A stretch of DNA of 64,000 nt, taken from Meyerozyma guilliermondii. Taxonomy: Eukaryota. The stretch is taken from assembly GCA_051546255.1 (NCBI GenBank), contig CP128816.1:930001-994000 (forward strand), written 5' to 3'. The translations under genes were made by a program, and so were the position numbers. Each line of letters begins with the position of its first letter. Position 1 is the first letter of the stretch. Shown here piece after piece: positions 17,839-60,917 of the stretch. The notes under the pieces were generated by a model. That model worked only from the letters and a program-made list of their open reading frames with translations, had not been told where the DNA came from and made no database searches.

Positions 17839-17909
17839 GCGCAAATGGTTTAGTGGTAAAATCCATCGTTGCCATCGATGGGCCCCCGGTTCGATTCCGG
17901 GTTTGCGCA
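17839..17909 (+). tRNA. tRNA-Gly (anticodon GCC)
   Basis: GCGCAAA/TTTGCGC acceptor stem, CATCG-TTGCCAT-CGATG, GGTTCGATTCC, downstream T-run. Confidence 0.96.
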
Positions 17910-18288
17910 TTTTCTTTTTCATTTTTTTTTTTGCGTTTTGCTCAACAAAACCAACCAGAGATTAACCAACCAGAGATTCAATGCAATGACGAACAAGACT
18001 TCAGGCCGACAAATTCCTACAAATACGCTCATACGCTACATAGTGTCAATTGAGCACTAATAATACCTGGATGTTAGTTTATGTTATAAATGGAGATGTG
18101 AAAACGTCATATAGGTGTTAGTTGATTTCATATAAGACCCGAAGACATTGGAATGGGCCAGATCATGACGATAACGCATTTATATTTAATCATTGTTTTC
18201 TTCATCGCACTTACATTTAAATGAAAAGAAAGTAATGAGAAATTTCACTGCGAAAGCGAAAAGTAGCAGCGGGATGCAATGTACGCAG

Positions 18289-19992: not shown

Positions 19993-20084
19993 GATGGTAG
20001 TAAGATAAAGACCAAAAGTGAGAATGAAATCAGAAAATGAAAGCGAGCGTGATAAAGGGACTGGAGACTAAATACCCTGTATAT

Positions 20085-20156
20085 GCTCGTGTGGCGCAGT
20101 GGTAGCGCAGCAGATTGCAAATCTGTTGGTCCTTAGTTCGAACCTGAGCGCGAGCT
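20085..20156 (+). tRNA. tRNA-Cys (anticodon GCA)
   Basis: GCTCGTG/CGCGAGC stem, CAGA-TTGCAAA-TCTG, GTTCGAACC, downstream T-run. Confidence 0.96.
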
Positions 20157-43419: not shown

Positions 43420-44415
43420 CTAATTGACTTGAAGTTCTTCATTTTTCTCACTTGGTTCTTGAAATTTTGGTCCACTCGTTTCCTCTTCCTTTTCGTCTTC
43501 TTCCCCCTTCTCCTCCACCTTCTCCTTTTTTCCCTCCTTTTCTCCCTTCTCCAACTTTCGAGGCGGAAGCACCTCGTTGAATGCTCTTCCCCAATCCTTA
43601 TTCAGCTCAAACCACTTGCAACAAAGTTCAAATACATGAGACGTAGCCAACACCTGTCTTCCGTTCAACTGTATAAATTGGTCAATAGGAAGTTTTCCCA
43701 CACGAAGTCCCAATTGTTCCGCCTTTTTTTTGCAGATAAGTTTGTGTCGATTCTTGTCTACTATACCTCCAATGATATACGTATGGTCCGGTAAAAGTTC
43801 TGTGATGACCTCGTCGGTATCTGCGGTCAAATATACCCACTTGGAGCGTTCCTGGGGATCAGTGGGCAAAATATCAGCCAAATGATCATTTTCTTGAAAC
43901 TGAATATTGGTCCAGAGTTTATATTGTGAGACCGACTTGTCGAACCTCAGTTTCAAATTCTTGTTAAACGAGGTTATATCGAGTTGAAGATCGTACTCAC
44001 AGTGTCGTTTGGCACTATAAGCTCTGGTGATCTGGTTGGAAAGTGACACTATTTCCTTGTTATTCATCAACTCATCAAACTCGCAGTCAATGACAATTTT
44101 CACTCCCGTTTGTTTTTGCTGAGACGGAATCTTTGGTCTCTTTTGTTGGTGGTAATTGATATCATCGGTGCCACTGCCTTCTTCCCCACGACTATGTCTC
44201 TTTCTTTCTCGTGCCGCTTTCTTTTTTTGTCGCTTTATTAACCGGTACTCTTCTTTGGTTTCTTCCCATCGCTTCTGACGTTGAAGTTTTTTCCACTGGT
44301 TTCGAGACATTCCAGGCGGAAGTTCCGGCCGCACCTTGGTCTCAGCTACGGCCTCGGTTTCAGATCTGCTGGACTCGTCATGGAGTGCCAAAGTTGGTTC
44401 TGTAGTTTCGGCCAT
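43420..44415 (-). CDS. TRM10: tRNA (guanine-9-N1)-methyltransferase
   Basis: PPGMSRNQWKK, IDCEFDELM, SLSNQITRAYS, YLTADT, YIIGGIVDKNRHK, VLATSHV. Confidence 0.96.
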   Translation of the reverse strand: MAETTEPTLALHDESSRSETEAVAETKVRPELPPGMSRNQWKKLQRQKRWEETKEEYRLIKRQKKKAARERKRHSRGEEGSGTDDINYHQQKRPKIPSQQKQTGVKIVIDCEFDELMNNKEIVSLSNQITRAYSAKRHCEYDLQLDITSFNKNLKLRFDKSVSQYKLWTNIQFQENDHLADILPTDPQERSKWVYLTADTDEVITELLPDHTYIIGGIVDKNRHKLICKKKAEQLGLRVGKLPIDQFIQLNGRQVLATSHVFELCCKWFELNKDWGRAFNEVLPPRKLEKGEKEGKKEKVEEKGEEDEKEEETSGPKFQEPSEKNEELQVN

Positions 44416-44592: not shown

Positions 44593-45305
44593 CAATCGAA
44601 TTGGTGAAATATTTCAGTATGGGGTACATGAGAAATATAAAATGATTGGAAATGCCATTAACCACAAAGGGTTGATTCAAGTGCTCTTTATTGGCTTTAG
44701 ATTAGACTGAGCAACTTGTATCCGAAGTCAGTCGCTCAATTGATGTTGTGACTTTTCACCAGAATCAGATGTCTCAAGAAGTCAAGTACAATTTATGTTA
44801 TTCTACTACTTCCTAGTAGATGTCAGATTATACGGTAAACCCAAAGGAAACCTCATAAATCTAACGACCTTCCACCACTTTCAATAGCTTTCGAACCTCC
44901 TCCTCGGTACTTTATTCAAACTGTAATATACGCAAATTTTGCAGCCATTCAAAAAAATCAAAATTGTAACTTTCAATTCGTTGAAGATTCGCAAGTCTCT
45001 ACTTTGCTTCGATACTTTCAAAGGAATATCAACCTCTCTACACAACAAATTCAAAAAATTTGTAAGCGACAAAATTACCCTCTCAATCCAGTCGCATTCA
45101 ATTCACTTGAGCTTTTTCATCAAAGACTCGAATGAGTCTTGACCTTGATCCCTTCTCACCCCTATCATGATTCGTTATACACATCGAGGCCAGCAAGTTG
45201 CAATTCGTAGCCCTGAAGGTGACACGGAGATAAACGGAGATAACATAGTAGCTATAAAAGAGTACTAGCTACCACAGTCTAAATCGACACCTAGCATTCC
45301 TCAAT

Positions 45306-46331
45306 ATGTCAATTCCTCTTACCGATAAAATAGCCTACGGCACCATGACCCTCGGCTTGAGATCCACCCCAATGAGTTTCGATGAAGCAGCAGATATGAT
45401 TAACTATGTTGTGACCAAGTACAATGTAAAGTTCCTCAATGGTGGAGAATTCTATGGCAAAGATCACTACAACTTGAAGGTTTTTCAAAGATACCTTGAA
45501 AAATACAATTCGCCAAAGAACAAAGATTTGATTGTGTCCATCAAAGGCGCATTCAACATCTCGGAAATGAAACCGGATGGAAGTAAAGAGGGAATTGACA
45601 GATCGATCAAAGCCATTCTTCCATATTTTGAGGTTGAAAATAGACCAAAGCTACTCTTCGAAGCAGCCAGGGTAGACCCAGCTGTTCCAATTGAGAATAC
45701 TATCTCTTACATCAATGAGTATATCAAGAAAGGAAAGTTGTCTGGAGTATCTCTCTCGGAAGCCGGAAGCAAATCCGTGGCCAAGGCTGCCAAGGTTGCT
45801 CCTATCTCTTTTGTTGAATTGGAATTTTCATTTTTCACCAGAGATATAGTTGACGAGGGTGTGTTCAAGGTTTGCTCCGACGAGGGCATCCCAATCATTG
45901 CGTACTCTCCATTGGGACATGGAATGTTGACTGACTTTCTGGTGGAGAACGCTGACAAGTTTTATGAGCAAACTCGTTCGGACTTTCGGGCTACATTCGA
46001 TAGGTTCACAGATGAGAACTATCAGAAGAATGTCGAAGCCTGCAAGAAATTGTACGATTTTGCCCACGACGTGAAAAAGACAACCTTAGAAGCCTTGGCA
46101 TTGTCATGGATTGTCAAGGTTTCCGAATCTACAAATTTGTGGGGTGTTGAAAAAGTTGCGAAGATTATTCCGATTCCTAGTAGCTCTTCCCCACTGAGAG
46201 CCGATGCAAACTTTGGAAAACTTGTGGAACTCTCTGACGAGGAATTTGCCCAGGTTGAGAAAATCTATGAGGAGAGCCGTATGGTTGGAACTCGTGGTAA
46301 TGCCCACATGGCCAAGTTTATGTTATCGTAG
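45306..46331 (+). CDS. Aldo-keto reductase, pyridoxal reductase (Plr1/YPR127W)-like, copy 1
   Basis: YGTM, FLNGGEFYG, SIKG, ARVDP, GVSLSE, IIAYSPLG, IIPIPS. Confidence 0.9.
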   Translation: MSIPLTDKIAYGTMTLGLRSTPMSFDEAADMINYVVTKYNVKFLNGGEFYGKDHYNLKVFQRYLEKYNSPKNKDLIVSIKGAFNISEMKPDGSKEGIDRSIKAILPYFEVENRPKLLFEAARVDPAVPIENTISYINEYIKKGKLSGVSLSEAGSKSVAKAAKVAPISFVELEFSFFTRDIVDEGVFKVCSDEGIPIIAYSPLGHGMLTDFLVENADKFYEQTRSDFRATFDRFTDENYQKNVEACKKLYDFAHDVKKTTLEALALSWIVKVSESTNLWGVEKVAKIIPIPSSSSPLRADANFGKLVELSDEEFAQVEKIYEESRMVGTRGNAHMAKFMLS

Positions 46332-46958
46332 AAATAAATGCAAATAAAGAGATTAATTAGGAGATTCGAATACGAATAATTCGAACCAATAACTCATCGA
46401 GAACGTGGTTCTGGCCAGCTTTGTCTATCTTGAGAGAGATCTTGATTGGCTGCAAAATGCCAAGCTTTTTTTCTCCCCAAAAAATTCCGCACTCCGTTTT
46501 GACAGATGTTTTTTTTTCCAACCCAGGAAGGTGCTTCCGTCTAACGGTCTCGAATCCACATTCGTAAACTATCTCAGCACCAATTCTCGGGTAAACCTAC
46601 TGGTCGTGAAGACTGACGCTGACTGACGCTCACAAAAGCACGGGCTGTGCTTACTATTCATTCAGCACGTTGCATATACGCTGGCAAGATGACAAAACGA
46701 TACGGAGATAATGAGGAAAAATATGTTCGGAGTACGAAACTTTAGACGTTCTGGTCCGCCCTATTTATAATTATTGCAACTGAAACGCGCTCGGCCGAGG
46801 GTTGCATAATCTCATCACTCCGATCTGCGGATATAAGGTCCTGCAGAGAGAACACCATACTGAATAAGCTATAGCAATGTTGCACTATTTAAAGGCGCCA
46901 CCATCGCCTAGAAAATCATATTCAAACCCAATTGATAATCCCAAAAAACACAAATAAA

Positions 46959-47984
46959 ATGTCCGTTCAACTCAATGACAAAATCTCCTACGGTACCATG
47001 TCGCTTACATGGAGACCAGAACCTATGAGTCCCGATGATGCTGCAGAAATGATCCACTATGTGGTTTCCAAGCATGGAGTTAAGTTTCTCAATGGAGGAG
47101 AGTTCTATGGTCCAGACAATGCCAACTTGAAGGCATTCCAAAGATACTTTGAGAAGTACAACTCTCCAAAGAACAAAGAATTGGTTGTCTCGATCAAAGG
47201 TGCCCTTGATCCTAAGACACTCAGTCCTGATGGAAGCAAGGAATCAATTGACAAATCTGTGAAGAATGTTCTTGCTCACTTCCCTTTGGAAAACAGACCT
47301 AAGATTTTGTTCGAAACCGCCAGGGTTGACAAAAACATTCCTATCGAGACCACTTTGTCCTACATCAATGAGTACATCCAACAGGGCTTATTATCGGGTG
47401 TTTCGCTCTCTGAGACCGGTGGAAAGACAGTTTTGAAGGCATTGAAGGTGGCTAACATCTCTTGCGTCGAATTGGAATTGTCTTTCTTTACCAGAGATAT
47501 CCTTGAGGACGGTGTGCTCAAGGTGTGTTCCGACAACAACATTCCAATCATTGCATACTCTCCCGTTTGCCGTGGTATGTTGACAGACTATGCGGTGGAG
47601 CACGCTGACGAACTTTACGAGGCTACTAGGAAGGATATGAGATCATGGATGGACAGATTTAGCGAGGAAAATTACAGAGCAAACATTGCAGCCTGCAAAA
47701 AATTGTATGATTTTGCTCATGATGTGAAAAAGACCTCTTTGGAAGCATTGGCTTTGTCGTGGATCTTGAAGGTTTCGGAAGCAAAGAACTTATGGGGCAT
47801 CGAGAAGGTCTGTAAGATTATCCCAATTCCCTCTGGCTCAACCAAAGAAAAGGCTGACATGAACTTTGGTCACCTTGTGGAAATCACCGATGCTGAATTC
47901 GAGGAGCTTGAGAAGATCTACGAGAGCACCAGATTGCAAGGTGGCCGTGCCAACGCTCACTTGATCCTGAACATGTTAGTTTAA
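46959..47984 (+). CDS. Aldo-keto reductase, pyridoxal reductase-like, copy 2
   Basis: Same motifs; YGTMSLTWRP, IIPIPSGST; first ATG at 46959. Confidence 0.9.
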   Translation: MSVQLNDKISYGTMSLTWRPEPMSPDDAAEMIHYVVSKHGVKFLNGGEFYGPDNANLKAFQRYFEKYNSPKNKELVVSIKGALDPKTLSPDGSKESIDKSVKNVLAHFPLENRPKILFETARVDKNIPIETTLSYINEYIQQGLLSGVSLSETGGKTVLKALKVANISCVELELSFFTRDILEDGVLKVCSDNNIPIIAYSPVCRGMLTDYAVEHADELYEATRKDMRSWMDRFSEENYRANIAACKKLYDFAHDVKKTSLEALALSWILKVSEAKNLWGIEKVCKIIPIPSGSTKEKADMNFGHLVEITDAEFEELEKIYESTRLQGGRANAHLILNMLV

Positions 47985-48003
47985 ACTGTTAGCTCAAGTT
48001 ATG

Positions 48004-51000
48004 TTATTCCGACCCCTGAAATAAACGATCAAATCCCAAATTTCTGAAAATATCAAATTCAATGCCCTGCTCGGGAGCAAGGTTCCAACGGCTTGCATTT
48101 TTGGAATCGTCCTCATTCTTACCATCTGCAAACGTGTTATCAGCATTTTGGTACAGCAGCGTACCTCCATCGATGTTACTATCTTGTTTCAAGGCCAACA
48201 TATTGAGCCACAAATTATCGACTTCTTGGTTGTTCACATAATCCACCCGGAAATCATACGGAGTGTGTTCCTTATCCCACATCGGAGTAGGGTGCGCATG
48301 TGAAGATATTAACGGTGGGAAGCCTAAAGTGTCAGAATTCTGTGCTGACCGAGCAATATCGTTTGCTACACTCGACTTGGGATTGAAGCCGCATTCGTCG
48401 TTGGTCAGCTCGCACTTGAGCTTCAGTAGAGTACATTCGCAAATGGTGGTTAATTCCTCCATCATTTCGACCCCAAATGCCATCAGGCACAAACCATAGT
48501 CTTGAGCTATGCGATAGTTACTTGAATAGAAACCAATGGACGTGACAGCTTGCAACAAATACGTCTGCGATTTGGTTATCCGCCAGGCGTAATAATACCG
48601 ATTACTGATTTTCAGAATAGCTGATATAGCCACTTCGGCACATCTGGTCATTGCAGATGAGAGTCTGCACATTGTATTGAAAGCGTGTCTGTACGCTTTA
48701 TCGACTTGCATGTTCTTGTCATGATCTGCATTATCCTTTGCATTGTGAATATTGAAATTGACCCTAACAATGCAGGCAAGTAGAATCTCGATGGTTCTAT
48801 GAATAACCAGCTCCAATGTGGGATTGACAACAAGAGCAAACACACTTTCATTTTCACCAAGAAGGGCGTAGTAGTTGGGCATTATATCACCAATGGCGAT
48901 CAATATCAACTTTTTGACATAGAAATAGCACAATTCTATATCACGATGCTCATAAAAATGATACAAGTGAAAGTAAATTGAAATGTAAAACGCCTTCAAT
49001 GACAAATAGAATTTCACCTTCATGTTCAAGGTTGATTCAGCACCCGGTATCTGCTCTGGCTTCAAACATTCCTCAAGAGTTCCAAATGTCTCTACCATTG
49101 ACAGTTCATGATTGCTCAAAAGCTTACAAAGCTCTGCCATATTGACACCATTTTTGACATCTAAAACTCGATCAAGAATTTCTCGAAGAGCAAATGTTCC
49201 ACTTGCACAGTGAAAGAAAGATGCTGTGACGAGTTTATCTCGATTAGTATCAACGATATTTTCTGATCCCGCTTCGTACCATGGCACTTTGGTATCGAAC
49301 GAATTGGGGTCAATGTTCAATGGGTTGCCAAATGACTGTGCTTGGTAGATATCGGAAACAACCAAGTAGAGCCATATCTTTCTTGCAAGATGATTTATCT
49401 TTCTGTCATTGCAAGCATCTTTGAATTTTGTGGGTTCTCGGTGAAAGCCGAGAGAGTAACCCATTTGAATCAACATCGAAGTCATGACCTGTGAATCGCC
49501 TCCATCTGCTCCATCGCCGTCCTCGGGTGCATACGTGTGATATATGCGCATAAACATTGCCAATTGAAACACCGTTACATTTGCTCTTCTGAGAAGTTGA
49601 AATTGGTCCAAGCAAAGTTGTGCCACATCGATAGTTTCAAAATTGATAGGATTGGAAAGAAGATATTGTACTTCTTTGTCGGCACAAGGTGCCTCACTAT
49701 TAAGGTTCCGTTCATTAATTGAATTTTTGTTTGAGAACAAGGACAAGTACGACAAGCGTAGCATTATTAAAAGGATACCGACATGCGCCAAATCGAGTCT
49801 TTTCTCGACTCTTAAGTTGGTTATTGGTTCATTTTCAAGTGAGAATTCACCGATTATAATGGAAATCGCAGTTTTAAAATATACCTCGTCCACATAAGGT
49901 AAATACGGATATAGTTTGGTGAAAAATCTCCGAACCAAGAGCCAAATAACCTTCTTTTTGGGTAAAATTATCTTGATCTTGTCTATCAACTGAAGTTCTC
50001 TGTCTAGATTTCCATCGTAGAAGGTGAGCCCTAGTGGTAATGTGTTTTGATTAATCTTGCTTTTCTTAGCTATCATTTGTTTTCGTCTCTCATACGATAA
50101 GAGATCGTCATATCCATCAGCTTCTAGTGCACGTTTTTCAAAAGCCATGTCTGGATTATTACCGCTAGAATTGACGTAGGAATTAATGGCTTTGTTGGAT
50201 GAGAAAACAGCAGTATTGTGTGATGCAGCATTTTTATCATTCGTTTCCACAATGTAGTCCCAAAGGATGGACAAGCCCAAATCTCGCCTCATGAGGGTAG
50301 CCCAGGCAAAAGGGCCAAAGTTGATTCTTCTCAAAGAGTCCTTTTCGTGTATTGATGTGTAGTTGGCGTAGAAATTAATCACATCGTTGTGGTTGCGGTA
50401 TGGGTTTTTGCCGGTCAAAGCATGGACATCGACATAGCATGGTTCGCTGATGGGAGAATTGGACGAAACACTTTGGTTTTTAGGGCTCCCCAGGAGTGAC
50501 GTCGCAGACGTGGAGTGTGAGCTCGAGGTCGAGGCGGATGAATGTGCATTACTTTTGAGAGGGGGAAGCTGTACCAATGGATCTTTGCCGAATATTCCAG
50601 GCAGTTGAAAGCTAGAGGGCGATGACGAGGTACCGTTGGACATGTCAAAGGGAAATCGTGGTTCGGAGGACGTGATACTGGGAATCGACATAGAGTCTCG
50701 TTTGAAATTTAATGGCAGTTGCACACTCGAAAAGTTTGATCTGTTGCCATTGGTTTGAACAGGAATATAGACGTTTCTATCCCTGATATGAGGAAGAGGC
50801 TGTTGTGTGTTCTCTTCATTATTTTGAAGTTTTTGTTCGATTTCTCGGATCTTGTTTTTAAGCATGGCAAGCTCCGAGGTAGCTTCTTCTTCTTGATTTT
50901 GATTTCCGTTACGAGACACTTTTTCGGACTTCTTGAACTCTAAGGGCCGTTTCGCCGACACCATATAAGGCATACTAGGAGGAGATTTTTTCTCGATCCG

Positions 51001-51156
51001 GTTATTTTCGCTGACTTCAAACACACACGATGAAGCACATTCAGCGCGTACACATTGTCCACAAGGTAAGTCCTTGTCACATCTTATTTTCTTCTTCTTG
51101 CAGTTGGTACACACATAGCTGGGTCTTTTTCGCTTCTTGATATCGGTGGCTACCAT
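48004..51156 (-). CDS. Zn(II)2Cys6 transcription factor, MRR1-like
   Basis: KRKRPSYVCTNCKKKKIRCDKDLPCGQC...C; RRINFGPFAW, RLDLAHVGILLIMLRLSYLSLFSN, PEDGDGADGGDSQ, ISNRYYYAWRITK resemble Mrr1; first ATG 51156. Confidence 0.88.
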   Translation of the reverse strand: MVATDIKKRKRPSYVCTNCKKKKIRCDKDLPCGQCVRAECASSCVFEVSENNRIEKKSPPSMPYMVSAKRPLEFKKSEKVSRNGNQNQEEEATSELAMLKNKIREIEQKLQNNEENTQQPLPHIRDRNVYIPVQTNGNRSNFSSVQLPLNFKRDSMSIPSITSSEPRFPFDMSNGTSSSPSSFQLPGIFGKDPLVQLPPLKSNAHSSASTSSSHSTSATSLLGSPKNQSVSSNSPISEPCYVDVHALTGKNPYRNHNDVINFYANYTSIHEKDSLRRINFGPFAWATLMRRDLGLSILWDYIVETNDKNAASHNTAVFSSNKAINSYVNSSGNNPDMAFEKRALEADGYDDLLSYERRKQMIAKKSKINQNTLPLGLTFYDGNLDRELQLIDKIKIILPKKKVIWLLVRRFFTKLYPYLPYVDEVYFKTAISIIIGEFSLENEPITNLRVEKRLDLAHVGILLIMLRLSYLSLFSNKNSINERNLNSEAPCADKEVQYLLSNPINFETIDVAQLCLDQFQLLRRANVTVFQLAMFMRIYHTYAPEDGDGADGGDSQVMTSMLIQMGYSLGFHREPTKFKDACNDRKINHLARKIWLYLVVSDIYQAQSFGNPLNIDPNSFDTKVPWYEAGSENIVDTNRDKLVTASFFHCASGTFALREILDRVLDVKNGVNMAELCKLLSNHELSMVETFGTLEECLKPEQIPGAESTLNMKVKFYLSLKAFYISIYFHLYHFYEHRDIELCYFYVKKLILIAIGDIMPNYYALLGENESVFALVVNPTLELVIHRTIEILLACIVRVNFNIHNAKDNADHDKNMQVDKAYRHAFNTMCRLSSAMTRCAEVAISAILKISNRYYYAWRITKSQTYLLQAVTSIGFYSSNYRIAQDYGLCLMAFGVEMMEELTTICECTLLKLKCELTNDECGFNPKSSVANDIARSAQNSDTLGFPPLISSHAHPTPMWDKEHTPYDFRVDYVNNQEVDNLWLNMLALKQDSNIDGGTLLYQNADNTFADGKNEDDSKNASRWNLAPEQGIEFDIFRNLGFDRLFQGSE

Positions 51157-51360
51157 ATTTTGCAGAGATGGCAAATACCTTTTTGAGCTTACTAAAGTCG
51201 AGTGCGGTTTCTCCGCTGCCTCGGGCCTGCATGCGGCTTATCCCCGTTCGCAGCCAAACGGCTGAGAATATTTATAGTTCATAGAGTTCATAAGTTCATA
51301 TATTTCATAAATAGTTGATGTTTTGTTCCTTGTTCATATTTCATACATTTCATAATTGTG

Positions 51361-54345
51361 TTACCCTTTGAATACGTGTTGGAGGGGATATTCACTGAAA
51401 ACTCCAAGGGTCTGGAGCTCGGCGAAATCTATTTCATATTCTGCTTGCGACCCCATATCGAATAAAGGTTCGAATCCAAACCCCAGATCAGGTTGAAGTT
51501 GTTGCTGTGACTGCTTCATATCGGATTGGTTCTGGATATTCTTGATGTGTCCTGGAATCTCGTTCTTCCTCTCGTCAAAAATGCCCATATTCAATCTGTC
51601 GCCGTCTTGCAAAATATCTTGGTCTTTTTGATTTCTTTCAGAAAGAATCCGAAGCCAAAGTTTATCGATCTCGGCTCCGCTGTCAAAATTGAGGTCTTCA
51701 AACTGACTGCTAATCTTTGCTCCGGTGTTGAGATCGCCTCCATTTTTCGAAACATCCACGCTGCCATTCGTACTCGACGTAGGAGATTTTTGCTGCGGAT
51801 TCTTCTTGCTGATCGCTGACATGTCGAGATAGTCACAATGAACAGCAATTACTTGCAAGGTATTAACGCTGGTGTTAAGTATTTCAAGCATTTCCTGAAG
51901 TTGTGTCAACGAATAGCCCTTGCATGTTTGATAGTAGGCACTCAGGACACTCAGGACATAAAAGTCATCGGATGTCACAACTTTGAGTAAGTAGTTATGA
52001 CTTCTACTCACTCCCCAAGCGAAATAGTACCTGTGACTTAACATGGAAAGTGCCATGAGACCGGCTCTAGCACATTGCTCAAAACACCCAATCAACTCCT
52101 TGACCACACGAACGTACGTTCCATATTCAGGATCGTTAGCCATACGCTCTCTGTGGCCAGCAGCCAGCTTCATTTTATACATCTGCGCATTCATTCTTAT
52201 GATCCCCATGAGCGAGAGCTCAATACAAACTTGCAACACGTATTGCATTTGAGGGTTTAAAATCTTTTCGGCACTTTCACCAAAGTGTTCTCTCCCTTTG
52301 CCAATCATTGGGAAAAAGTAGGGTACAAGCTCATTAAGACCCATCCAAAGAAGCTTCTTGAAGTAGTAAAAGGCTATGTCTAAGTCCCCTTTGGCCTCGT
52401 AATGCATTTGAAGATGAAGATACATCAACATCAAAAAGGCTTTTAAACCAAATGAAATTCTCGCCTTCATGGTTTTGGCATATTGGTATGACGGTGTTGA
52501 TTTCTCCAAGGGCTTCACGTAGTCCTCAATTCTTCCAAACAAAGAAAATACTTGAACTTCCAGCAAATTAAGATTCATGGTAAGCTGTGACACTTTGATT
52601 TTGGACCTCGGGTCAAGAAGTGTCCCAACAACTCTACTTAGGGGTCCCTTGATAAGAACATCGGCGTAATTGAACAACACGTTGATTGCCTCCTCCACTT
52701 CAAGATCACGTACATTCGAAAAGCCGTGAACGTGTGATGGACATTTGGTATCGTAATATTGAGCATTGATGAGTAACGGGTACCCGGTCAGAAAACAGGC
52801 TGTGAAATCCATGATGGTTAAGTAGTACCATATTCGCCGTCCAATGTTCTTCTTGTCTTCACTCCATGTAGCATACCCAACATAATCTGGGTCACGATGA
52901 AGTCCGAGCGAGTATGCCATGGAAACCAACAGGCCATGCAGTATAATGTATTCACCACCATCTGCTCCTTCCTCTTCGTCGGGAGACAACAAACCGTACG
53001 TCCACAAAAACATCCCGCATTGTAGGACCTCAAGACTGATTTTCTTCTTTTTTTGAAATTGTGTGAAACATTCTCGAGCGACTTCAATTACGTTTAATTC
53101 GATAGGTGTACCAAGGAACAATGGAATTCTTTGGGGTGGTAAATCGTCGGAAGGGGCCACAACCTGGCCCTTAGTAACATTTGCAAAGAAAGATAAGTAC
53201 GAGAAACGTAAGATAACAAGAAGTATTCCAATATGGGCCAAGTCGAGTCTCTTTTCAAGATGGAGGTCAATTTTGTCACTTTTATCATTTTCAGAACCAA
53301 TGATTTTCTCAATCTCGCGATAGAATGTATCCTGATTAATAAAAGGGTAGTATGGGATGAATAGACGAAAGAACCGAGCAAGGAGCTTATAAGTGATTGA
53401 TCTATCGGGAATAACGGCCTTTATTCGTTCGATCAAGGTGGTTTCAGGTGCAAAGATGGAGCCCTTGTTGGTAAGATCCAACGTCAAAAGTCGATAATCC
53501 ATGGCTTCTTGGTTGGTTTGGTTGGCTGCCAGAGCCTTATCGTCAAATGTCGGTTTTTTTTGGCGAGGAGGGACGGAGGGCCGTCGTTTTGGTTGGGCTG
53601 CCTCGGCTTCTCTTTGCGAGATAACATAGTTGCGCAATGCAAGAAAGCAAGGTTGTTTCGAGATGGTACTTCTCCATCCAAAAGTAAGACATTCTGAGGT
53701 TCCTACCACATTCGCAACACTGGAAAAGCCTCCGCTGCCCAGAATGTCTATTTCTTCGTCCTCGGATATGTATGGATTAGTTCCCAAAAACGACTTGTCA
53801 TCGGCGTTCGGGGTCTGCGGGCTGAACCGGGTACTTTGGTATGTGAAGTTTATCATTTTGTGTTTGAACAACATAAATGTTGCAAAACATGTGTCTTCTG
53901 GGGCATTGGGATCATGGAGCAGTTGCCACTCAAGAGGGATCGCGCCAAGATCACGATTCAAGTATGTTTTAGAGATGGTTTTGAAGCTAAACTCTTGCAC
54001 TGGAAGTATGTTTTGTGGTAAAACTTCAGGACTGTTGGCAGCTGCTTGTAGCTCGGCAAGTTCCAGCTTTGAGATCATCACTTTTTCTTCGTCGTTTCTA
54101 ATTGGTGGAAGCTGAAACAGGTCATCATTGTTATGCTTATGCTTAATGATATGGTCTCCTTCAATATCGTGATCTTTCTTGGATTCTTTAGGCAGCTCGT
54201 ATTGACAGAATTCTTGTAGGTTGTTAGTGACACACGAAGCACATGGTCTTCCCTTATCACATTTGACTTTACGGGTTTTACAGGGTATACAGACGTAGGA
54301 GGGTCTGTTGCGCCTCCGTCGGGCCAATTCAAAGTTGTTTGTCAT
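51361..54345 (-). CDS. Zn(II)2Cys6 transcription factor, divergent MRR1-like paralog
   Basis: RRNRPSYVCIPCKTRKVKCDKGRPCASC...C; RLDLAHIGILLVILRFSYLS, EEGADGG, LSHRYYFAW. Confidence 0.88.
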   Translation of the reverse strand: MTNNFELARRRRNRPSYVCIPCKTRKVKCDKGRPCASCVTNNLQEFCQYELPKESKKDHDIEGDHIIKHKHNNDDLFQLPPIRNDEEKVMISKLELAELQAAANSPEVLPQNILPVQEFSFKTISKTYLNRDLGAIPLEWQLLHDPNAPEDTCFATFMLFKHKMINFTYQSTRFSPQTPNADDKSFLGTNPYISEDEEIDILGSGGFSSVANVVGTSECLTFGWRSTISKQPCFLALRNYVISQREAEAAQPKRRPSVPPRQKKPTFDDKALAANQTNQEAMDYRLLTLDLTNKGSIFAPETTLIERIKAVIPDRSITYKLLARFFRLFIPYYPFINQDTFYREIEKIIGSENDKSDKIDLHLEKRLDLAHIGILLVILRFSYLSFFANVTKGQVVAPSDDLPPQRIPLFLGTPIELNVIEVARECFTQFQKKKKISLEVLQCGMFLWTYGLLSPDEEEGADGGEYIILHGLLVSMAYSLGLHRDPDYVGYATWSEDKKNIGRRIWYYLTIMDFTACFLTGYPLLINAQYYDTKCPSHVHGFSNVRDLEVEEAINVLFNYADVLIKGPLSRVVGTLLDPRSKIKVSQLTMNLNLLEVQVFSLFGRIEDYVKPLEKSTPSYQYAKTMKARISFGLKAFLMLMYLHLQMHYEAKGDLDIAFYYFKKLLWMGLNELVPYFFPMIGKGREHFGESAEKILNPQMQYVLQVCIELSLMGIIRMNAQMYKMKLAAGHRERMANDPEYGTYVRVVKELIGCFEQCARAGLMALSMLSHRYYFAWGVSRSHNYLLKVVTSDDFYVLSVLSAYYQTCKGYSLTQLQEMLEILNTSVNTLQVIAVHCDYLDMSAISKKNPQQKSPTSSTNGSVDVSKNGGDLNTGAKISSQFEDLNFDSGAEIDKLWLRILSERNQKDQDILQDGDRLNMGIFDERKNEIPGHIKNIQNQSDMKQSQQQLQPDLGFGFEPLFDMGSQAEYEIDFAELQTLGVFSEYPLQHVFKG

Positions 54346-54703
54346 TAGGTTTGGTGGCTCACTGGGGCATAATATAAAGACTATAAGTAGAGAGCGGCGC
54401 GAGAATGTGAGATTCAGATTACGTTATAAACGGTGGTGGTTATGTAATCGTCACTTCAGCTCAACGAAAGATCAGGTCTAATTCAGCTCTTGCGACAGAT
54501 CAAATACTCTTGTATGTAGTATAAGTATCTTTTGTATTATTAGAAACAGTGTCTACTAAAAACTTGACCAAATACTTTGCAACCTTTGGTCCTGCATTTT
54601 ATAGATGTAAGTCACGTGCCGAATCAAAGTCCGAGGACGGCCGAGCGGTTGCAAATGTACATTAATAGTTACGAAATAGTACGTAAACATCTTGAAACAA
54701 TTC

Positions 54704-57700
54704 TTATCTCTTTTTCTCTCTGTTTCCCTTGGGAACTCTAGCCAAATAGTAGAGAAATATCGTCAATATAATGTTAATTGCGATAAAGGCCACAAAAATT
54801 CCATAATTTCTCCATCTTTCGCTATAGAGTGCATTAATGGATCCCAAGAAATCATTTGTTGAGGATACGGGACAATAATTGCAAATTTCAGTGGCATCCT
54901 CTGCCAATAAGTATCCTCCTGCTGCTTCAATATAGCCAGCCATATAATTTCCACATGTTGTATTATTTGGGGCATTGAACTTGAGAAGCTCGTTCTCAGA
55001 GCACACAACATTTGTGTTAGCCAAGCCAGCAGTAAGAACTCCCTGGAAGAAATATGTGAACGGATTAGCTCGATACATAAATATCCAGAAACCTGGCATC
55101 GCATCCTTTGTGGCTACGACACCACAGAAATTCAAACACAGGGTAAATAAAATCATCGACAAGTTTGCGGCATTCTCCACCAGTTCAATGAAAGATATAC
55201 ACAACTGACCCATGGTTGAAGTGTAGACGAAAAAGGAAGAGAAGAATAACCACATAAGGGCTCCACGTTCATGGACAGCTCCAGTTGGTTCTGCATTCTG
55301 GTATAGACCGACTGGATAGTACCAAGAAAAAAAAGCCATAGTGCCCACCAAAACTTGGTACGGAATCTCGGACGTGATCTGGGCTGAAATGAAAGCTAAC
55401 CAACCAAAAGTCTTTGATGGAGATTCCCTGACCTCATAAAGTTCTCGTTGTTTCACAAAGTACGGCAACATCTGTTGAATCAAAGTATTGAATGGAGTGG
55501 TGTACATGAACACTGCAAACATTTGATTCTGTAAACCTTGAATGGAATTTGTTGCCTTGAAAAATGAAAATCCATTGAACAAAGCAGCAAACACTGCCAA
55601 GAACAATTTCGAATAAATATAGCCAGGAGATCTCCAATTTTGAACTATAACCCTCCATGTGACGTACCAGTATTGTTTCCAAAATGGTGCAGCGTAGGAT
55701 TGGTGTTCTTCAGGAGAATGATTTCTTGGTAATTTGGACAATTCAGTTTCCATGCGATCCAATTCACTGTTAACTTCCCGGAATTCAGAAGAGTTTCTCC
55801 ACACCTCGTAATAGTCTTGCTTTGCATGCGAACCTGGAGCAGCACCGACAACTTGCAACATCCATTCAGCCGGATTCGCTTCCTTTGGACAAGGATCAGC
55901 TCCGTACTTTTCAAAGTAGTTGATCAAAGTTGAACAGTTTTCTCCCAAATCACCAAAGTAGACGGTTCTTCCACCTTTTTGCAAGAATAGCAAACGGTCA
56001 AACTCCTTCAACAAAATAGCAGATGGTTGATGGATAGTACACAAGATGGCCTGACCACGATCCGCAAGCTTTCTCATCAATTGACAAATAGACCAGGCAG
56101 TTTGAGAATCAAGACCAGACGTTGGTTCATCCAAGAACAACAACAATTTAGGTTTCGCAACCAACTCGACACCAATGGTCAACCGTTTACGTTGCTCCAC
56201 ATTCAAACCTTCACCAGCAACACCAACCAAAGCGTCAGCATAGGTGGTCATATCCAATAAATCGATGATATACTCCACATAGTCGCTTTTTTCTGCTTTG
56301 GAAACTGAATTTGGTTGTCTTAAGTAGGCAGAGAAACGCAATGCTTCACGAACTGTAGACGTTGCCAAGTGCAAATCTTGTTGTTGAACATATCCAATGG
56401 ATCTCTGGAATGAGGAATCCAATGAGTGACCATTGACCATTCTAACACCATCAGGAATGACACCTGTGGTAACACGTTCGGATAAACAGTTCAATAGAGT
56501 GGTCTTACCAGCTCCAGAAGATCCCATTAACGCAGTCAACTGACCAGGCTTGACCCATCCATCAACGTGATCCAATATGACTCTTGTTTCAGACTTGATC
56601 TTGACTTCGTAAGTGAGATTTCTCCAGTGAAAAATGTTGACGTCTTCTGGTAAATTGTCGGAGGAGGAGGAGTTATCAGCGGTATACTTCTGTGACTCCA
56701 AAACATCCTTCATTTCCACTTTTTCTTCGGTTGGAAAAGCCTCTATGTCTCGAGCATAACTCGCTTTAGCAGAATTTTCTTTCTTGTGTTTCTTCAAAGA
56801 GCCTCTTAAAAACAAGGCAATTTCACCTTTTTGCAACGCTCCCTTATTACCTTCAGCTAATATGACGTACACAACCAAGAAAAAAACTGCAAAGCCCACA
56901 GAAATTCCAAAATTTCTCCACTTATGGCCATTGTAGTATTTGTACTGAGATGCAAGGTAATCAGTTCCCAATACGATAGAAGATCCAGAACGTGCTCCGA
57001 CAGTATGACAAACCTTTTCATTTAATGGAACATCGCCATAAGAGATACCAGACGGAACAAAATTCGTGCACCTGAAATCACGACCATGAAATTCGTTCAC
57101 CATCAAAGACTCAAAAACGTAGCCAACAGGGTTGATATAATTGATCCACCTGCTCCACCCCAACATATTGGGGGTGGGAATGACAAATCCAGCATAGATC
57201 ATTGACGCCAAAAAGACCACTGTAGCTGGAGTCATAGCACCAGCTAGCGTCGTATAGATGGCGCCCAATGAACGGAAAATGTGGGACATGACCAAAGTAC
57301 AAACCGCACACATCAACCAATAAAAGAAGAAGTTACCTGGATTTCTTCTGAAATTGACCATAAAGTAAAATGTCACATTGAAGCACACTGACAGTAAAAG
57401 TTTAACAGGTAGCTCTGTGATAATCCCCGCTAGAGCATCAGCAGCAGGACGATAAAGCGCATACTTCTTGTGCTTTTCCACAATAGGTCTGGCTTCGAAT
57501 ATGGCTATGATTTCCAACATAGACGACAATGCGTTGAATAAAACAGCAAAGAACAAACCAGTGGTTCTGGAAAAAAACGATCCCGTAGTCAGATCCAAAT
57601 TGTAAAAAACCGATCCCATGATCAATGCCATGATCAATTGACCGGCGACTGACGATATAGGAATTGAAGGATCACCCTTGAATCTGAGATAGTTTCTTCG

Positions 57701-59143
57701 CATAATGTATTTGACTTGCATGAAGAAGGAAACCGTGTATGGTGACTTTGAGGAAACGTGGTTTGCCTGTCTTGCGACGTGAGAATCGTGGTGGTCTTTC
57801 TTTGGATTTTTTTCAACCTGTTCCATGTGCACATCAATCTCTTCAACGACTCGTTTATACTCTGGCGAATTTTTCCAGTAAGTTTCAAATTCAAGAGGGG
57901 TCTTGGGTACTTTATCCTCGAACCCTGATCTGGCAATTCTTTCCGATGGGTTGGTCAACGATGTCAAAAAATCAGCAGTCGCTTGACGCTCGGGACATTC
58001 GTAACCCATAGCTAGAAAGTAGTTTTTAGCATCGTCTGCTTTTCCAAAAAAAATCTGCCTTCCCTCGTAAAGTAGGATAACTTTGTCGAATAAGCTGTAG
58101 GCATCCTCCGAACACTGGTAGATAGCAATTAATGGTGTGGACTCGAAAACATTAGCCGAAAGTTTCAAAGCCTTGATGAACTCTAGCGCAGTAGCAGCAT
58201 CCAATCCTCTGGTAGCATTATCCCAACACTGCAAGTTGGCACCACTCAATGATGCTTCAGCAATCGAAACCCGCTTCCGCTCACCGCCAGAAACTCCCCT
58301 TATGAAATCGTTGCCAACACGAGAGTTACGAGTGTGGGACAAGCCGTAGGTAGCCATGTAGACGCTAGCCATGTGACGAGCATAGGTCTCTCTATCGACA
58401 TTACCTCTGTTTTGAGGAGTTCTTAAACGAGCAGCAAACTCCAAAGTGTCACCCACAGACAAATGAGGAAAATGAACATCGGTTTCTGCCGAGTAGATCA
58501 CATCACCACGGAAATTGTTCTCGATATCCTTCATGGTCAAACCATCATAGGTAATTTTACTCTCTTCTCCAAGATGGAAACCGTAGGTATGAGCAGCGAT
58601 TGTCTTCAACAAGGTGGAACAACCCGAACCCGGTCTACCAAGCACAACTGTGACTTCACCAGGCTTCATTATAGCGTCCATATTCTTCAAGATATCAAAG
58701 TAGATCGAAGGATCTTGCTTTCTCATCGATCTGATGTAATCTTTACCAAGCTTGAACAAAGCTGAAGTAACTGTAGGCTGGTAATCGGAGTCAGTAGCAA
58801 TACCATATGCTCTCAAATCACGGTAAGCTACACCCAACGACGTGGGCTTGTAATACCCAGGGTCAGAATTGTGCAATTTTCTCATATTCTTCACCCAAAG
58901 TTTAGAATCAAACATGTCCGAATTGGGGTTGAGACTATCTTCAACTTCGTCGGGAATAAATGGTTCAACTCCGGGAACCTGCGACATGTGTGACATGGAT
59001 CTTATAAGATCTGCACTACTAGTGTTGGAAATGACTCTAGCCAAGTCCCTGATGGTTTCGTCCACCTCCGGAGTAAAGTCTTGATACGACTTTTCTGCAG
59101 ATATAGCCTCCGACCTATCAAACGGCAGTAGATCAATTGACAT
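54704..59143 (-). CDS. Full-size PDR-family ABC exporter, CDR1/PDR5-like
   Basis: NBD1 GRPGSGCST + VSGGERKRVSIAE + CWDNATRGLD; NBD2 GSSGAGKTT + LNVEQRKRLTIGVEL; ends RVPKGNREKKR. Confidence 0.96.
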   Translation of the reverse strand: MSIDLLPFDRSEAISAEKSYQDFTPEVDETIRDLARVISNTSSADLIRSMSHMSQVPGVEPFIPDEVEDSLNPNSDMFDSKLWVKNMRKLHNSDPGYYKPTSLGVAYRDLRAYGIATDSDYQPTVTSALFKLGKDYIRSMRKQDPSIYFDILKNMDAIMKPGEVTVVLGRPGSGCSTLLKTIAAHTYGFHLGEESKITYDGLTMKDIENNFRGDVIYSAETDVHFPHLSVGDTLEFAARLRTPQNRGNVDRETYARHMASVYMATYGLSHTRNSRVGNDFIRGVSGGERKRVSIAEASLSGANLQCWDNATRGLDAATALEFIKALKLSANVFESTPLIAIYQCSEDAYSLFDKVILLYEGRQIFFGKADDAKNYFLAMGYECPERQATADFLTSLTNPSERIARSGFEDKVPKTPLEFETYWKNSPEYKRVVEEIDVHMEQVEKNPKKDHHDSHVARQANHVSSKSPYTVSFFMQVKYIMRRNYLRFKGDPSIPISSVAGQLIMALIMGSVFYNLDLTTGSFFSRTTGLFFAVLFNALSSMLEIIAIFEARPIVEKHKKYALYRPAADALAGIITELPVKLLLSVCFNVTFYFMVNFRRNPGNFFFYWLMCAVCTLVMSHIFRSLGAIYTTLAGAMTPATVVFLASMIYAGFVIPTPNMLGWSRWINYINPVGYVFESLMVNEFHGRDFRCTNFVPSGISYGDVPLNEKVCHTVGARSGSSIVLGTDYLASQYKYYNGHKWRNFGISVGFAVFFLVVYVILAEGNKGALQKGEIALFLRGSLKKHKKENSAKASYARDIEAFPTEEKVEMKDVLESQKYTADNSSSSDNLPEDVNIFHWRNLTYEVKIKSETRVILDHVDGWVKPGQLTALMGSSGAGKTTLLNCLSERVTTGVIPDGVRMVNGHSLDSSFQRSIGYVQQQDLHLATSTVREALRFSAYLRQPNSVSKAEKSDYVEYIIDLLDMTTYADALVGVAGEGLNVEQRKRLTIGVELVAKPKLLLFLDEPTSGLDSQTAWSICQLMRKLADRGQAILCTIHQPSAILLKEFDRLLFLQKGGRTVYFGDLGENCSTLINYFEKYGADPCPKEANPAEWMLQVVGAAPGSHAKQDYYEVWRNSSEFREVNSELDRMETELSKLPRNHSPEEHQSYAAPFWKQYWYVTWRVIVQNWRSPGYIYSKLFLAVFAALFNGFSFFKATNSIQGLQNQMFAVFMYTTPFNTLIQQMLPYFVKQRELYEVRESPSKTFGWLAFISAQITSEIPYQVLVGTMAFFSWYYPVGLYQNAEPTGAVHERGALMWLFFSSFFVYTSTMGQLCISFIELVENAANLSMILFTLCLNFCGVVATKDAMPGFWIFMYRANPFTYFFQGVLTAGLANTNVVCSENELLKFNAPNNTTCGNYMAGYIEAAGGYLLAEDATEICNYCPVSSTNDFLGSINALYSERWRNYGIFVAFIAINIILTIFLYYLARVPKGNREKKR

Positions 59144-59975
59144 CTTGCAAGTACCTTCCTAGTTCAATATACTCGAATCACAAACAGATCGGTCAATTCC
59201 TTTTAATTGAATATCTCGTCAACTGAAAATCGCCGCCCTAGAACTGGGTATTTATATTTCGAATGAAATTTGTTGACTGGAACATTCTTCTGATATATTA
59301 TTCTCGAAAACACCGCCATGAGCTCGTCACAATATGTTTTACGTGCTAAAGGCCGTAAATTACTAATAATGTCCAAGCATTTTGAGTTCTCGGCCGTAAG
59401 CTTTTTGGGGGTATCGTCGTTAATATTTGTAGTTTTTTAAAGCATGATAGACTAGTGTATTGTTGGGGGTAGTCGTATTTTCCATGATGTGGTATTTTCC
59501 ACTAGCTCTTATTTAGCATCAAAAGAAACGGCATTTGACCTTATCGCCTTTAACAGACTTACGATGTAATTAATGAGACTTCCTGCATAATTCATTAGGT
59601 ACTGCATAGCGTTGGTCCCTGACTCCCAAAGTGGGAAACACAACTGATTGTTGCGCCGTACTGCAATTTGGTTTTTACGTCATAGTCTGGAACCTTCAAA
59701 TCCACAGGGCTCCAATCTTACGGCCGATACAGTGAAAATGTTTTTTCGCAGCCACAAAGATTGCTCTTTCGGCCGTAAGATCTACGAGCCCGCGAACACA
59801 GTCTGAACAAACTTGCATTGTCATGAACACCTTTTCCCATATATAATCTGCAAAAAGTGGAAACAGACCCATAAACAGAGGCAGCCATGTAGAAAACTCA
59901 ATGAAATAGAATTTATGTACCGTAATGTTCGCACATTTTGATCGGTTCACCATTATATTGATACTTCTAATTACT

Positions 59976-60917
59976 TCAACTAGATCCTATGGCTCCGTAG
60001 TTATACAGCGACTCATCAGTGATCTCTGATGCGTCTTCCAGGTATGGTTCGTTCTCGTTGTACAAGAAAAATTGAACAAATATAGTAAAGTCAAGAGCTA
60101 AGGTTCCCAATGAACCTGCGAGCCAAGAAGAATTGACCCACAAGTAACTCCAACTGATATCGATGGCAAGAATAGATACCACGTATGTCAAGTTGCCTAG
60201 GCATGCGAACAAGAAGAACATGAATGAGATACCCTCGCAAGACTTACGTTGGTAGTTCAAGAGAATCTGAGGAATACGAGAACCCAAGTAGAAGACGGCA
60301 CACAACCACCCAAAGAATTGAGCCAAGGGGTCGTACACAAGTTCTTGTGGTCTTCTTTCTGGTTTTCCAGGGTGTGCTCTTCGATATTGTTCGTCTTTGA
60401 CGTAGGAAATGTACCATCCTACTAATCCGGCAAACATTACCAGGGCAACCATCAAGGTTTTGAGAAGCACTGCGCTCAAATAGGACGACGATACTGGTTT
60501 GCTTTGCTCAAGGAGCTCCTGAGATTCTTCGTCAGCTTCGCCATACTCTCTTGAAAGCGCTGTTTCGAGCACATCCTCATTAAGTGGGTTGGCTGGAGAT
60601 AAGTGAATGGGGTCTGCACTTTCACCATGTCCATACACCAAGCATTGCCACAACAAGAGAATGTCTGCCAAGGTGTAGTAGATGGCAAGAATAATCATAG
60701 TTGGTAAAACTCCTTGGAGGATGGAACCTAAAACATTGAAGATATCACCGGCAAGCCAAAGAATGACAAACTGAAGCGATAAACCTTCCGAAGATCTTCG
60801 ACGAAAATTCTCGTAGATCTGTGGCGCAAACACAATAATCCAACATGCGAGGGATATGGAACCAGTAATACCGCTAACGGCCTGGGCGTCGATGACAATT
60901 GGCGGTGGAGGTGCCAT
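59976..60917 (-). CDS. PQ-loop vacuolar cationic amino-acid transporter (YPQ1/YPQ2/RTC2 family)
   Basis: WIIVFAPQIYENF...SEGLS, YLGSRIPQILLN...SCEGIS; ATG at 60917. Confidence 0.92.
   Translation of the reverse strand: MAPPPPIVIDAQAVSGITGSISLACWIIVFAPQIYENFRRRSSEGLSLQFVILWLAGDIFNVLGSILQGVLPTMIILAIYYTLADILLLWQCLVYGHGESADPIHLSPANPLNEDVLETALSREYGEADEESQELLEQSKPVSSSYLSAVLLKTLMVALVMFAGLVGWYISYVKDEQYRRAHPGKPERRPQELVYDPLAQFFGWLCAVFYLGSRIPQILLNYQRKSCEGISFMFFLFACLGNLTYVVSILAIDISWSYLWVNSSWLAGSLGTLALDFTIFVQFFLYNENEPYLEDASEITDESLYNYGAIGSS

What the first reader, a model, noticed from the sequence alone, without database searches (positions are those of the whole stretch)
45200..59800. Candidate self-contained detoxification cluster: 2 AKRs + 2 MRR1-like regulators + CDR1-like pump
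Seen: five contiguous genes with nothing between them (two aldo-keto reductases, two related Zn2Cys6 factors, one PDR ABC exporter), flanked by housekeeping genes (TRM10, PQ-loop transporter). Established: in Candida, Mrr1 activates efflux pumps and aldo-keto/aldehyde reductases, and its targets are generally dispersed. Inference: regulator, modifying enzyme and exporter are physically clustered here as a sense-reduce-export module for an aromatic aldehyde or other xenobiotic. Shared promoter motifs (reported separately) support this.
Basis: partly seen in the sequence, partly recalled or inferred. Interest (0 to 1): 0.8.

Follow-up and report, generated by a model that had tools for sequence, protein, structure and literature searches.

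The report
Drug-resistance regulators flanked by likely targets
In this yeast, a known pair of drug-resistance regulator genes has detoxifying enzymes on one side and a drug pump on the other, probably some of their own targets, whereas in most related yeasts these genes lie far apart.

Summary
The five genes are real and intact. The yeast is Meyerozyma guilliermondii. The regulators are the MRR1 orthologue (PGUG_01741) and probably the ZCF35 orthologue (PGUG_01742), an old tandem already catalogued in 9 of 10 Candida-clade genomes. The additions are a Meyerozyma-specific pair of pyridoxal-reductase-type AKRs and one of four CDR1-like pumps. AKR and MRR1 are unlinked in 6 of 7 other named species checked, but two accessions apart in Candida zeylanoides. 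All 3 exact matches in the window to the published Mrr1 motif CGGAGWTAR lie in the two AKR promoters (0 of 20,000 promoter shuffles). The pump promoter has none; it carries CTTACGGCCGA three times. Related CGGCCG sites lie upstream of ZCF35, of AKR-b and of several dispersed detox genes. The AKR orthologue is Mrr1-dependent in C. lusitaniae but not in C. auris. 'Self-contained' and 'one aldehyde substrate' are not supported: paralogues and motif-bearing targets lie across the genome, and 5 of 9 other Mrr1-family loci also adjoin detox genes. Verdict: a regulator hub with some probable targets in cis. No expression data were obtained for the AKRs or the pump.

The parts
43420..44415 (-). TRM10 tRNA methyltransferase; left boundary and old neighbour of MRR1
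   Evidence: Pfam PF01746. A C. duobushaemulii gene model fuses TRM10 with MRR1, next to RHO1.
45225..45243 (+). Two direct copies of the Mrr1 consensus motif (CGGAGATAA), 81 and 71 bp before the AKR-a start
   Evidence: motif from PMC12607694
45306..46331 (+). AKR-a, pyridoxal-reductase-type aldo-keto reductase, 341 aa (PGUG_01739 by position)
46703..46711 (+). Mrr1 consensus motif in the AKR-b promoter, within a 12-bp block identical in the C8 paralogue's promoter
46774..46801 (+). 28-bp block around CGCTCGGCCG, identical in the promoter of the C8 AKR paralogue; flanking promoter DNA is about 70% identical
46959..47984 (+). AKR-b, 341 aa (PGUG_01740 by position), 91% identical to PGUG_05755 on C8; its stop is 19 bp from the MRR1 stop (convergent)
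48004..51156 (-). MRR1 orthologue, Zn2Cys6 factor, 1050 aa (PGUG_01741)
   Evidence: Falls in the Mrr1 clade; 38% to C. albicans and 41% to C. lusitaniae Mrr1; the published PGUG_01741/MRR1 primer matches at 50385-50406.
51157..51360 (-). 204-bp MRR1 upstream region with a one-mismatch Mrr1 motif (51238-51246) and a TTACTAA site (51189-51195)
   Evidence: Reading TTACTAA as a Cap1/Yap site is recalled.
51361..54345 (-). Probable ZCF35 orthologue, Zn2Cys6 factor, 994 aa (PGUG_01742)
   Evidence: Groups with the C. albicans gene between PQ-loop and MRR1 (support 85); same position; length matches PGUG_01742; CGOB cluster 33.
54638..54647 (-). CGCTCGGCCG in the ZCF35 upstream region, which is also the pump's 3' flank
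   Evidence: Sharing a 10-mer with the AKR-b promoter is not significant alone (1017 of 3000 shuffles).
54704..59143 (-). CDR1-like PDR ABC exporter, 1479 aa, one of four in the genome
59390..59779 (.). Three exact copies of CTTACGGCCGA (59390-59400 -, 59717-59727 +, 59769-59779 -) in the pump promoter
   Evidence: Any 11-mer three times: 2 of 5000 shuffles. 3 of the genome's 18 TTACGGCCGA sites.
59976..60917 (-). PQ-loop vacuolar transporter; right boundary; directly precedes ZCF35 or MRR1 in the two other yeast loci read

Best explanation
This is the ancestral MRR1-ZCF35 regulator tandem of CUG-Ser yeasts, with probable target genes now on both flanks: a PLR1-type AKR (later duplicated) downstream and a CDR1 paralogue upstream. 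Shown from sequence: gene identities, the old tandem, the Meyerozyma-specific AKR copies and the two promoter motifs. Inferred mechanism: Mrr1, activated by reactive carbonyls or other xenobiotics, binds CGGAGATAA and induces both AKRs, which reduce aldehydes with NADPH (about 0.75). The pump is induced through CGGCCG sites by a zinc-cluster factor, most plausibly the neighbouring Zcf35 or Mrr1 (about 0.45). The locus is the hub of a genome-wide detox regulon with a few targets in cis, not a closed pathway for one compound.
For: Orthology. Old tandem: 9 of 10 genomes; C. albicans locus L006: PQ-loop, TF, MRR1, TF; no AKR or pump. AKR regulation: the C. lusitaniae orthologue CLUG_02968 is Mrr1-dependently expressed and has Mrr1 CUT&RUN peaks in 2 of 3 peak files. 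Its C. albicans orthologue CR_09100C rises with MDR1 overexpression and benomyl. Motifs: 3 exact Mrr1 motifs in 1.5 kb of AKR promoter against 128 in 10.66 Mb, with a footprint conserved in the C8 paralogue. Outside the window 9 of 20 ACGGAGATAA sites are intergenic, against 20% intergenic DNA in the window; 6 of the 9 precede oxidoreductases or transporters. WCGGCCGW occurs 5 times in 2.9 kb of cluster promoters (0 of 5000 shuffles). 7 of 15 other TTACGGCCGA sites are intergenic, 4 of the 7 before DUF3533, SDR, epimerase/GRP2-like or MFS genes. Hyperactive C. albicans Zcf35 induces the FLU1 pump. PGUG_01741 is a patulin DEG in an experiment where MDR1 and GRP2 rise strongly.
Against: No expression or binding data were obtained for the AKRs, ZCF35 or the pump in this species. 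They are absent from the curated patulin DEG table, which lists only part of 348 DEGs. The C. auris AKR orthologue is benomyl-induced equally in wild type and mrr1a deletion (log2FC 0.94 vs 1.00). In C. lusitaniae the orthologue is classed as an indirect target because it has no peak with the Y813C allele. Two MDR1-like promoters in this genome have no exact Mrr1 motif and no CGGCCG, so the motif is an imperfect predictor. ACGGAGATAA shows no genome-wide excess over its reversed control (23 vs 25). The CGGCCG motif was found after looking, and its factor is unknown. At least ten other Mrr1-family factors in this genome could use these sites.
Confidence: 0.55

Rival explanations
1. Incidental neighbourhood. 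The flanks of MRR1 are rearrangement-prone, detox genes duplicate and move often in this genome, and these landed here without selection for linkage. Any regulation by Mrr1 owes nothing to position.
For: The immediate neighbours differ between lineages (L006 and L007; an OPT1-like gene B9J08_004062 in C. auris, whose adjacency to MRR1a is recalled). The AKR-b promoter elements persist in the unlinked C8 copy. The pump paralogues that carry the Mrr1 motif are the unlinked ones. 5 of 9 other Mrr1-family loci adjoin detox genes.
Against: Both flanks hold gene classes defined beforehand as Mrr1 targets. The block persists in diverged relatives (shared contig lengths 764266 and 70678). AKR and MRR1 are also near neighbours in C. 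zeylanoides.
Confidence: 0.25
2. The AKRs are vitamin B6 (pyridoxal) reductases and the pump answers to an unlinked regulator. The neighbouring factors control neither.
For: Homologues are annotated pyridoxal reductase or pyridoxine 4-dehydrogenase. Overexpressing the C. albicans orthologue does not change drug or oxidative-stress sensitivity (description). The orthologue is Mrr1a-independent in C. auris.
Against: Three exact Mrr1 motifs and their conservation; Mrr1 dependence in C. lusitaniae; three AKR copies in one genome.
Confidence: 0.12
3. One reading: a self-contained sense-reduce-export module for one aromatic aldehyde or xenobiotic.
For: Gene content and contiguity. AKR-b carries both motif types and could link the two arms.
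Against: Paralogues and motif-bearing targets are dispersed. No motif is common to AKR-a and the pump. The regulator tandem exists without these genes in other species. No substrate evidence was found.
Confidence: 0.08

Closest known systems
Mrr1 regulon of Clavispora lusitaniae and Candida albicans (PMC12607694, PMC2048531)
   Same: Orthologous regulator, the same CGGAGWTAR motif, and the same target classes, including CDR1 (C. lusitaniae) and the orthologous AKR.
   Different: There the AKR and CDR1 are unlinked to MRR1 (CLUG_02968, CLUG_03113 vs CLUG_00542). Here they flank it, the AKR is duplicated, and this pump's promoter has CGGCCG repeats in place of the Mrr1 motif.
ZCF35-MRR1 tandem, cluster 33 of the Candida Gene Order Browser (PMC2880306)
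   Same: PGUG_01741/01742 are listed members; the AKR pair is listed separately as species-specific cluster 382.
   Different: That table lists tandem duplicates only. The rows and passages seen say nothing on regulator-target linkage or the pump.
C. albicans Zcf35 (PMC5633205)
   Same: Probable orthologue in the same position; when artificially activated it induces an efflux pump (FLU1).
   Different: 28% identity. No binding motif or adjacent target was found for it in the papers seen.
Fungal regulator-containing gene clusters (secondary-metabolite or catabolic clusters; general knowledge)
   Same: A pathway-type zinc-cluster factor beside enzymes and a transporter.
   Different: No biosynthetic core, no shown common substrate, and the regulator probably also acts genome-wide.

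Membership tests
Mrr1 orthologue (48004-51156) | Zn2Cys6 domain plus fungal TF middle domain | tested here: met
   PF00172 and PF04082
Mrr1 orthologue (48004-51156) | Clade with characterised Mrr1 proteins and syntenic position near RHO1/TRM10 and PQ-loop | tested here: met
   Clade support 98. RHO1 and MRR1 are 3 accessions apart in C. lusitaniae, C. auris, D. hansenii, D. fabryi and M. farinosa.
Mrr1 orthologue (48004-51156) | Activates MDR1 and binds CGGAGWTAR in this species | not testable with these tools
   Only indirect: patulin co-response; the MDR1-like promoters lack exact motifs.
Zcf35 orthologue (51361-54345) | Groups with C. albicans orf19.7371 and lies between PQ-loop and MRR1 | tested here: met
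   FastTree support is 85 with long branches. Naming the L006 gene ZCF35 rests on its position beside a 99% C. albicans Mrr1 and.
PLR1 / CR_09100C-type aldo-keto reductases | Orthology and the family's residues at the catalytic positions (N45, Y50, K80, R122) | tested here: met
   In one clade with the C. albicans and C. lusitaniae genes (100/100). Y50, K80 and R122 in 31 of 31 rows, N45 in 30 of 31.
PLR1 / CR_09100C-type aldo-keto reductases | NADPH-dependent reduction of pyridoxal or other aldehydes | not testable with these tools
   Needs purified enzyme.
Cdr1/Pdr5 PDR exporters | Full-length (NBD-TMD)2 with PDR_CDR domain; Cdr1 as nearest solved relative | tested here: met
Direct Mrr1 target (pump) | CGGAGWTAR in the promoter | tested here: not met
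   None in 832 bp, even allowing two mismatches after CGG; present upstream of the C4 and C5 paralogues.
Self-contained functional gene cluster | Members and their control elements confined to the locus | tested here: not met
Self-contained functional gene cluster | Linkage conserved across species | tested here: inconclusive
   Kept in close relatives; AKR-MRR1 also linked in C. zeylanoides; unlinked in 6 other named species. The evidence is accession order and contig length, not DNA. The pump's neighbourhood outside Meyerozyma was read in only 2 loci.
Self-contained functional gene cluster | Co-expression and a shared substrate | not testable with these tools
   No sequencing runs could be examined; published tables were partial.

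The most novel reading that the evidence does not exclude
A two-regulator detox hub. Mrr1 drives the AKRs through CGGAGATAA. Zcf35, whose natural motif and targets I did not find described, binds an unspaced inverted CGG repeat (WCGGCCGW) and drives itself, the adjacent CDR1 paralogue, AKR-b and dispersed SNG1-, GRP2-, SDR- and MFS-type genes. The MRR1-AKR linkage has been kept or re-made by selection in two lineages (Meyerozyma and the C. zeylanoides group). This would give Zcf35 a regulon and offer a yeast example of a drug-resistance regulator gathering its own targets.
Probability: 0.25. Interest if true: 0.7.

Novelty: new variant of a known kind. Interest (0 to 1): 0.5.

Why it matters
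M. guilliermondii is an opportunistic pathogen and biocontrol yeast in which multidrug-resistant isolates are reported. The locus names the MRR1 and ZCF35 orthologues and an adjacent pump as genes to sequence in resistant isolates. One duplication of this 14-kb block would raise regulators and targets together. The CGGCCG repeat is a concrete candidate site for a poorly characterised factor. The locus is also a test case for whether regulator-target clustering in yeasts is selected or incidental. All parts belong to known families, and the regulator tandem is already catalogued.

Tried and rejected
DNA-level synteny: the metagenome scan gave 78 loci, of which only 2 were near full-length MRR1-locus relatives (L006, L007). 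Four more (L027, L063, L029, L070) were annotated and are other loci; the remaining 72 were not examined. The prokaryote genome scan found nothing. Idea that the gene between TRM10 and MRR1 is the AKR in all CUG-Ser yeasts: rejected, because the AKR accessions lie elsewhere in C. albicans, C. lusitaniae, C. auris, D. hansenii, H. burtonii and S. xylosifermentans. Idea that these AKRs are the published patulin-degrading MgAKR: rejected, that enzyme is a YJR096W homologue. Shared versus independent origin of the AKR-MRR1 linkage: an AU test does not reject one clade for the Meyerozyma and C. zeylanoides-group AKRs (p 0.45), but the free tree does not show it; unresolved. Tac1-type CGGN4CGG: none in the pump promoter. 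No transposon-like terminal repeats stood out around the AKRs or pump among the repeats listed. No paper naming the factor for CGGCCG was found (3 listings, none read); the resemblance to the S. cerevisiae Rds1 motif is recalled only. A recalled mrr1-atrB cluster in Botrytis was not confirmed in the passages seen. Expression of the cluster could not be examined in sequencing runs.
Full report
Observation. Read with the CUG-Ser code, 45306-59143 holds five intact ORFs: two aldo-keto reductases (341 aa each, 67% identical), two Zn2Cys6 factors (1050 and 994 aa, 25% identical) and a 1479-aa PDR ABC exporter. They lie between TRM10 and a PQ-loop gene. The genome has 10.66 Mb in 8 contigs. An AKR paralogue on C8 is identical to PGUG_05755 of Meyerozyma guilliermondii, which gives the species.

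The regulators. The 1050-aa factor falls in the clade of characterised Mrr1 proteins (FastTree support 98). It is 38-41% identical to C. albicans and C. lusitaniae Mrr1 and carries the published primer site for PGUG_01741/MRR1. Its position is conserved: RHO1 and MRR1 are three accessions apart in five other species. The 994-aa factor matches PGUG_01742 in length. It groups, with moderate support (85), with the gene upstream of MRR1 in a C. albicans locus (L006), that is ZCF35. The ZCF35-MRR1 tandem is listed for 9 of 10 genomes in the Candida Gene Order Browser supplement, so it is old and already recorded.

The additions. The AKRs belong to the pyridoxal-reductase-like family. The three copies in this genome form one Meyerozyma clade (support 100; 121 full-length rows, 31 chosen rows). 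The window pair is listed as a species-specific tandem. By accession order the AKR is unlinked to MRR1 in 6 of 7 other named species checked. For H. burtonii I compared it with RHO1: same scaffold, 108 accessions away. Whether that linkage is shared ancestry or convergence is open (AU p 0.45). The pump is one of four CDR1-like genes, 80% identical to two and 70% to the third. It is absent from the two other yeast MRR1 loci I could read as DNA. Contig-length matches suggest that the whole block persists in a relative at about 94% identity, and AKR-MRR1-ZCF35 in one at 56-79%. This is indirect evidence.

Promoters. The Mrr1 consensus CGGAGWTAR was defined by CUT&RUN and EMSA in C. lusitaniae (PMC12607694), so it is a prior test. 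The window has 3 exact matches. That count is ordinary for 64 kb (12 of 100 shuffles), but all 3 lie in the 1.5 kb upstream of the two AKRs (0 of 20,000 promoter shuffles; genome rate 128 in 10.66 Mb). The AKR-b site and a 28-bp block around CGCTCGGCCG are identical in the C8 paralogue's promoter, which is otherwise about 70% alike. The pump promoter has no Mrr1 motif, unlike its C4 and C5 paralogues. It has CTTACGGCCGA three times (any 11-mer three times in 2 of 5000 shuffles). WCGGCCGW occurs 5 times in the five cluster promoters (0 of 5000 shuffles; motif chosen after looking). Of 15 other TTACGGCCGA sites, 7 are intergenic, and 4 of those precede DUF3533, SDR, epimerase and MFS genes. Of 6 other CGCTCGGCCG sites, 3 are intergenic and 2 precede an MFS pump and an SDR. 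Of 20 ACGGAGATAA sites outside the window, 9 are intergenic and 6 precede oxidoreductases or transporters. Against: two MDR1-like promoters have neither motif exactly; ACGGAGATAA is no commoner than its reversed control (23 vs 25); and the 10-mer shared by the AKR-b and ZCF35 promoters is not significant alone (1017 of 3000).

Function in relatives. The C. lusitaniae orthologue CLUG_02968 is differentially expressed with Mrr1 activity and has Mrr1 peaks in 2 of 3 peak files, but is classed as indirect. The C. albicans orthologue rises with MDR1 overexpression and benomyl, yet its overexpression gives no drug phenotype (description). The C. auris orthologue is induced by benomyl independently of Mrr1a. 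C. lusitaniae Mrr1 binds and induces CDR1 and its own promoter. Artificially activated C. albicans Zcf35 induces FLU1. In M. guilliermondii, PGUG_01741 is a patulin DEG (direction not seen), with MDR1 at log2FC 10 and GRP2 at 6.7. The AKRs and the pump are not in the curated table, which covers only part of 348 DEGs.

How special is the clustering? Of 9 other Mrr1-family loci examined in this genome, 5 directly adjoin MFS pumps, reductases or an RTA1 gene, and 4 do not. Regulator-beside-target is therefore a recurring pattern here. What is particular to this locus is that it involves the true MRR1-ZCF35 orthologues and both flanks.

Mechanism. Most likely (0.55) this is a regulator hub with some targets in cis. 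Mrr1 induces the AKRs through CGGAGATAA (inferred, about 0.75). A zinc-cluster factor, plausibly Zcf35 or Mrr1, induces the pump through CGGCCG repeats (inferred, about 0.45). Most targets lie elsewhere. Rivals: incidental neighbourhood (0.25), B6 enzymes with unrelated neighbours (0.12), and a closed single-substrate module (0.08).

Novelty. All parts and both tandems are known. I found no description of the regulator-target linkage or of the CGGCCG repeat in nine library searches. The library lacks most subscription papers, and the full DEG lists of the two patulin studies could not be seen.

What I saw of each paper. PMC12607694: abstract, passages, section 10, supplement search rows, and part 1 of 2 of files 2 and 7. 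PMC2880306 and PMC9241502: passages and supplement rows (the latter file was cut when stored). PMC10219284: passages, tables section and a primer row. PMC12225012: passages and section 6. PMC2048531, PMC5633205, PMC6255150, PMC2785876, PMC13396506, PMC12644842 and PMC10269459: passages only. Recalled and not from a call: the Rds1 motif, the Cap1/Yap site, the names SNG1, GRP2, AZR1, PMA1, FAS1, U1A, CTA4 and MDR1-like for ORFs identified only by Pfam, position or appearance, and the C. auris tag of MRR1a.

Verdict: observation confirmed, interpretation partly supported; new variant of a known kind; interest 0.5.

Noticed in passing
G000 C8:131588-148661 (L003, L004): Second detox-like cluster: third AKR (PGUG_05755), Zn2Cys6 factor, SDR, five old-yellow-enzyme genes, a membrane protein and an alcohol dehydrogenase; Mrr1-type motifs upstream of the AKR and the ADH. 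The OYE tandem is CGOB cluster 56.
   Followed up: partly
G000 C4:468132-479458 (L088, L089): Another AKR (different subfamily) transcribed divergently from a CDR1 paralogue, with two exact Mrr1 motifs between them and an SDR nearby. This pump is split into two overlapping ORFs near 475.4-475.5 kb (frameshift, intron or assembly error).
   Followed up: partly
G000 C5:12283-19266 (L137) and C4:1253999-1260084 (L156): Mrr1-family factors sit beside MDR1-like MFS pumps: one between two pumps, one beside a pump and two methyltransferases.
   Followed up: partly
G000 C7:223-228 kb (L132): Tandem of NADPH oxidoreductase genes with two exact Mrr1 motifs and one TCGGCCGA upstream, the same motif pair as AKR-b.
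   Followed up: partly
G000 C3:875605-895035 and C4:1010017-1043085: Motif hits recur every 1943 bp (11 times) and every 8267 bp (5 times): two tandem arrays. The second is probably rDNA; the first is unexplained.
   Followed up: no
window 47985-48003: AKR-b and MRR1 end only 19 bp apart on opposite strands, so their transcripts probably overlap; antisense or transcriptional interference is possible.
   Followed up: no
window 54704-59143: A 385-aa NCBI protein is 100% identical to part of this pump, so another annotation has the gene split or truncated; the ORF here is intact.
   Followed up: partly
public records KAJ9103395-KAJ9103399, KAJ9095064-KAJ9095065: Proteins labelled Naganishia cerealis (a basidiomycete) fall in the same 90% clusters as the window's genes and in the same order, which suggests contamination of that assembly by this yeast.
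   Followed up: no
G000 C1:21883-26379 and C5:977419-981906: Two CDR1-like paralogues are 96% identical with 76% identical promoters, a recent duplication; only the C5 copy keeps an exact Mrr1 motif.
   Followed up: partly
window 17572-20156: Three tRNA genes (Val, Gly, Cys).
   Followed up: no
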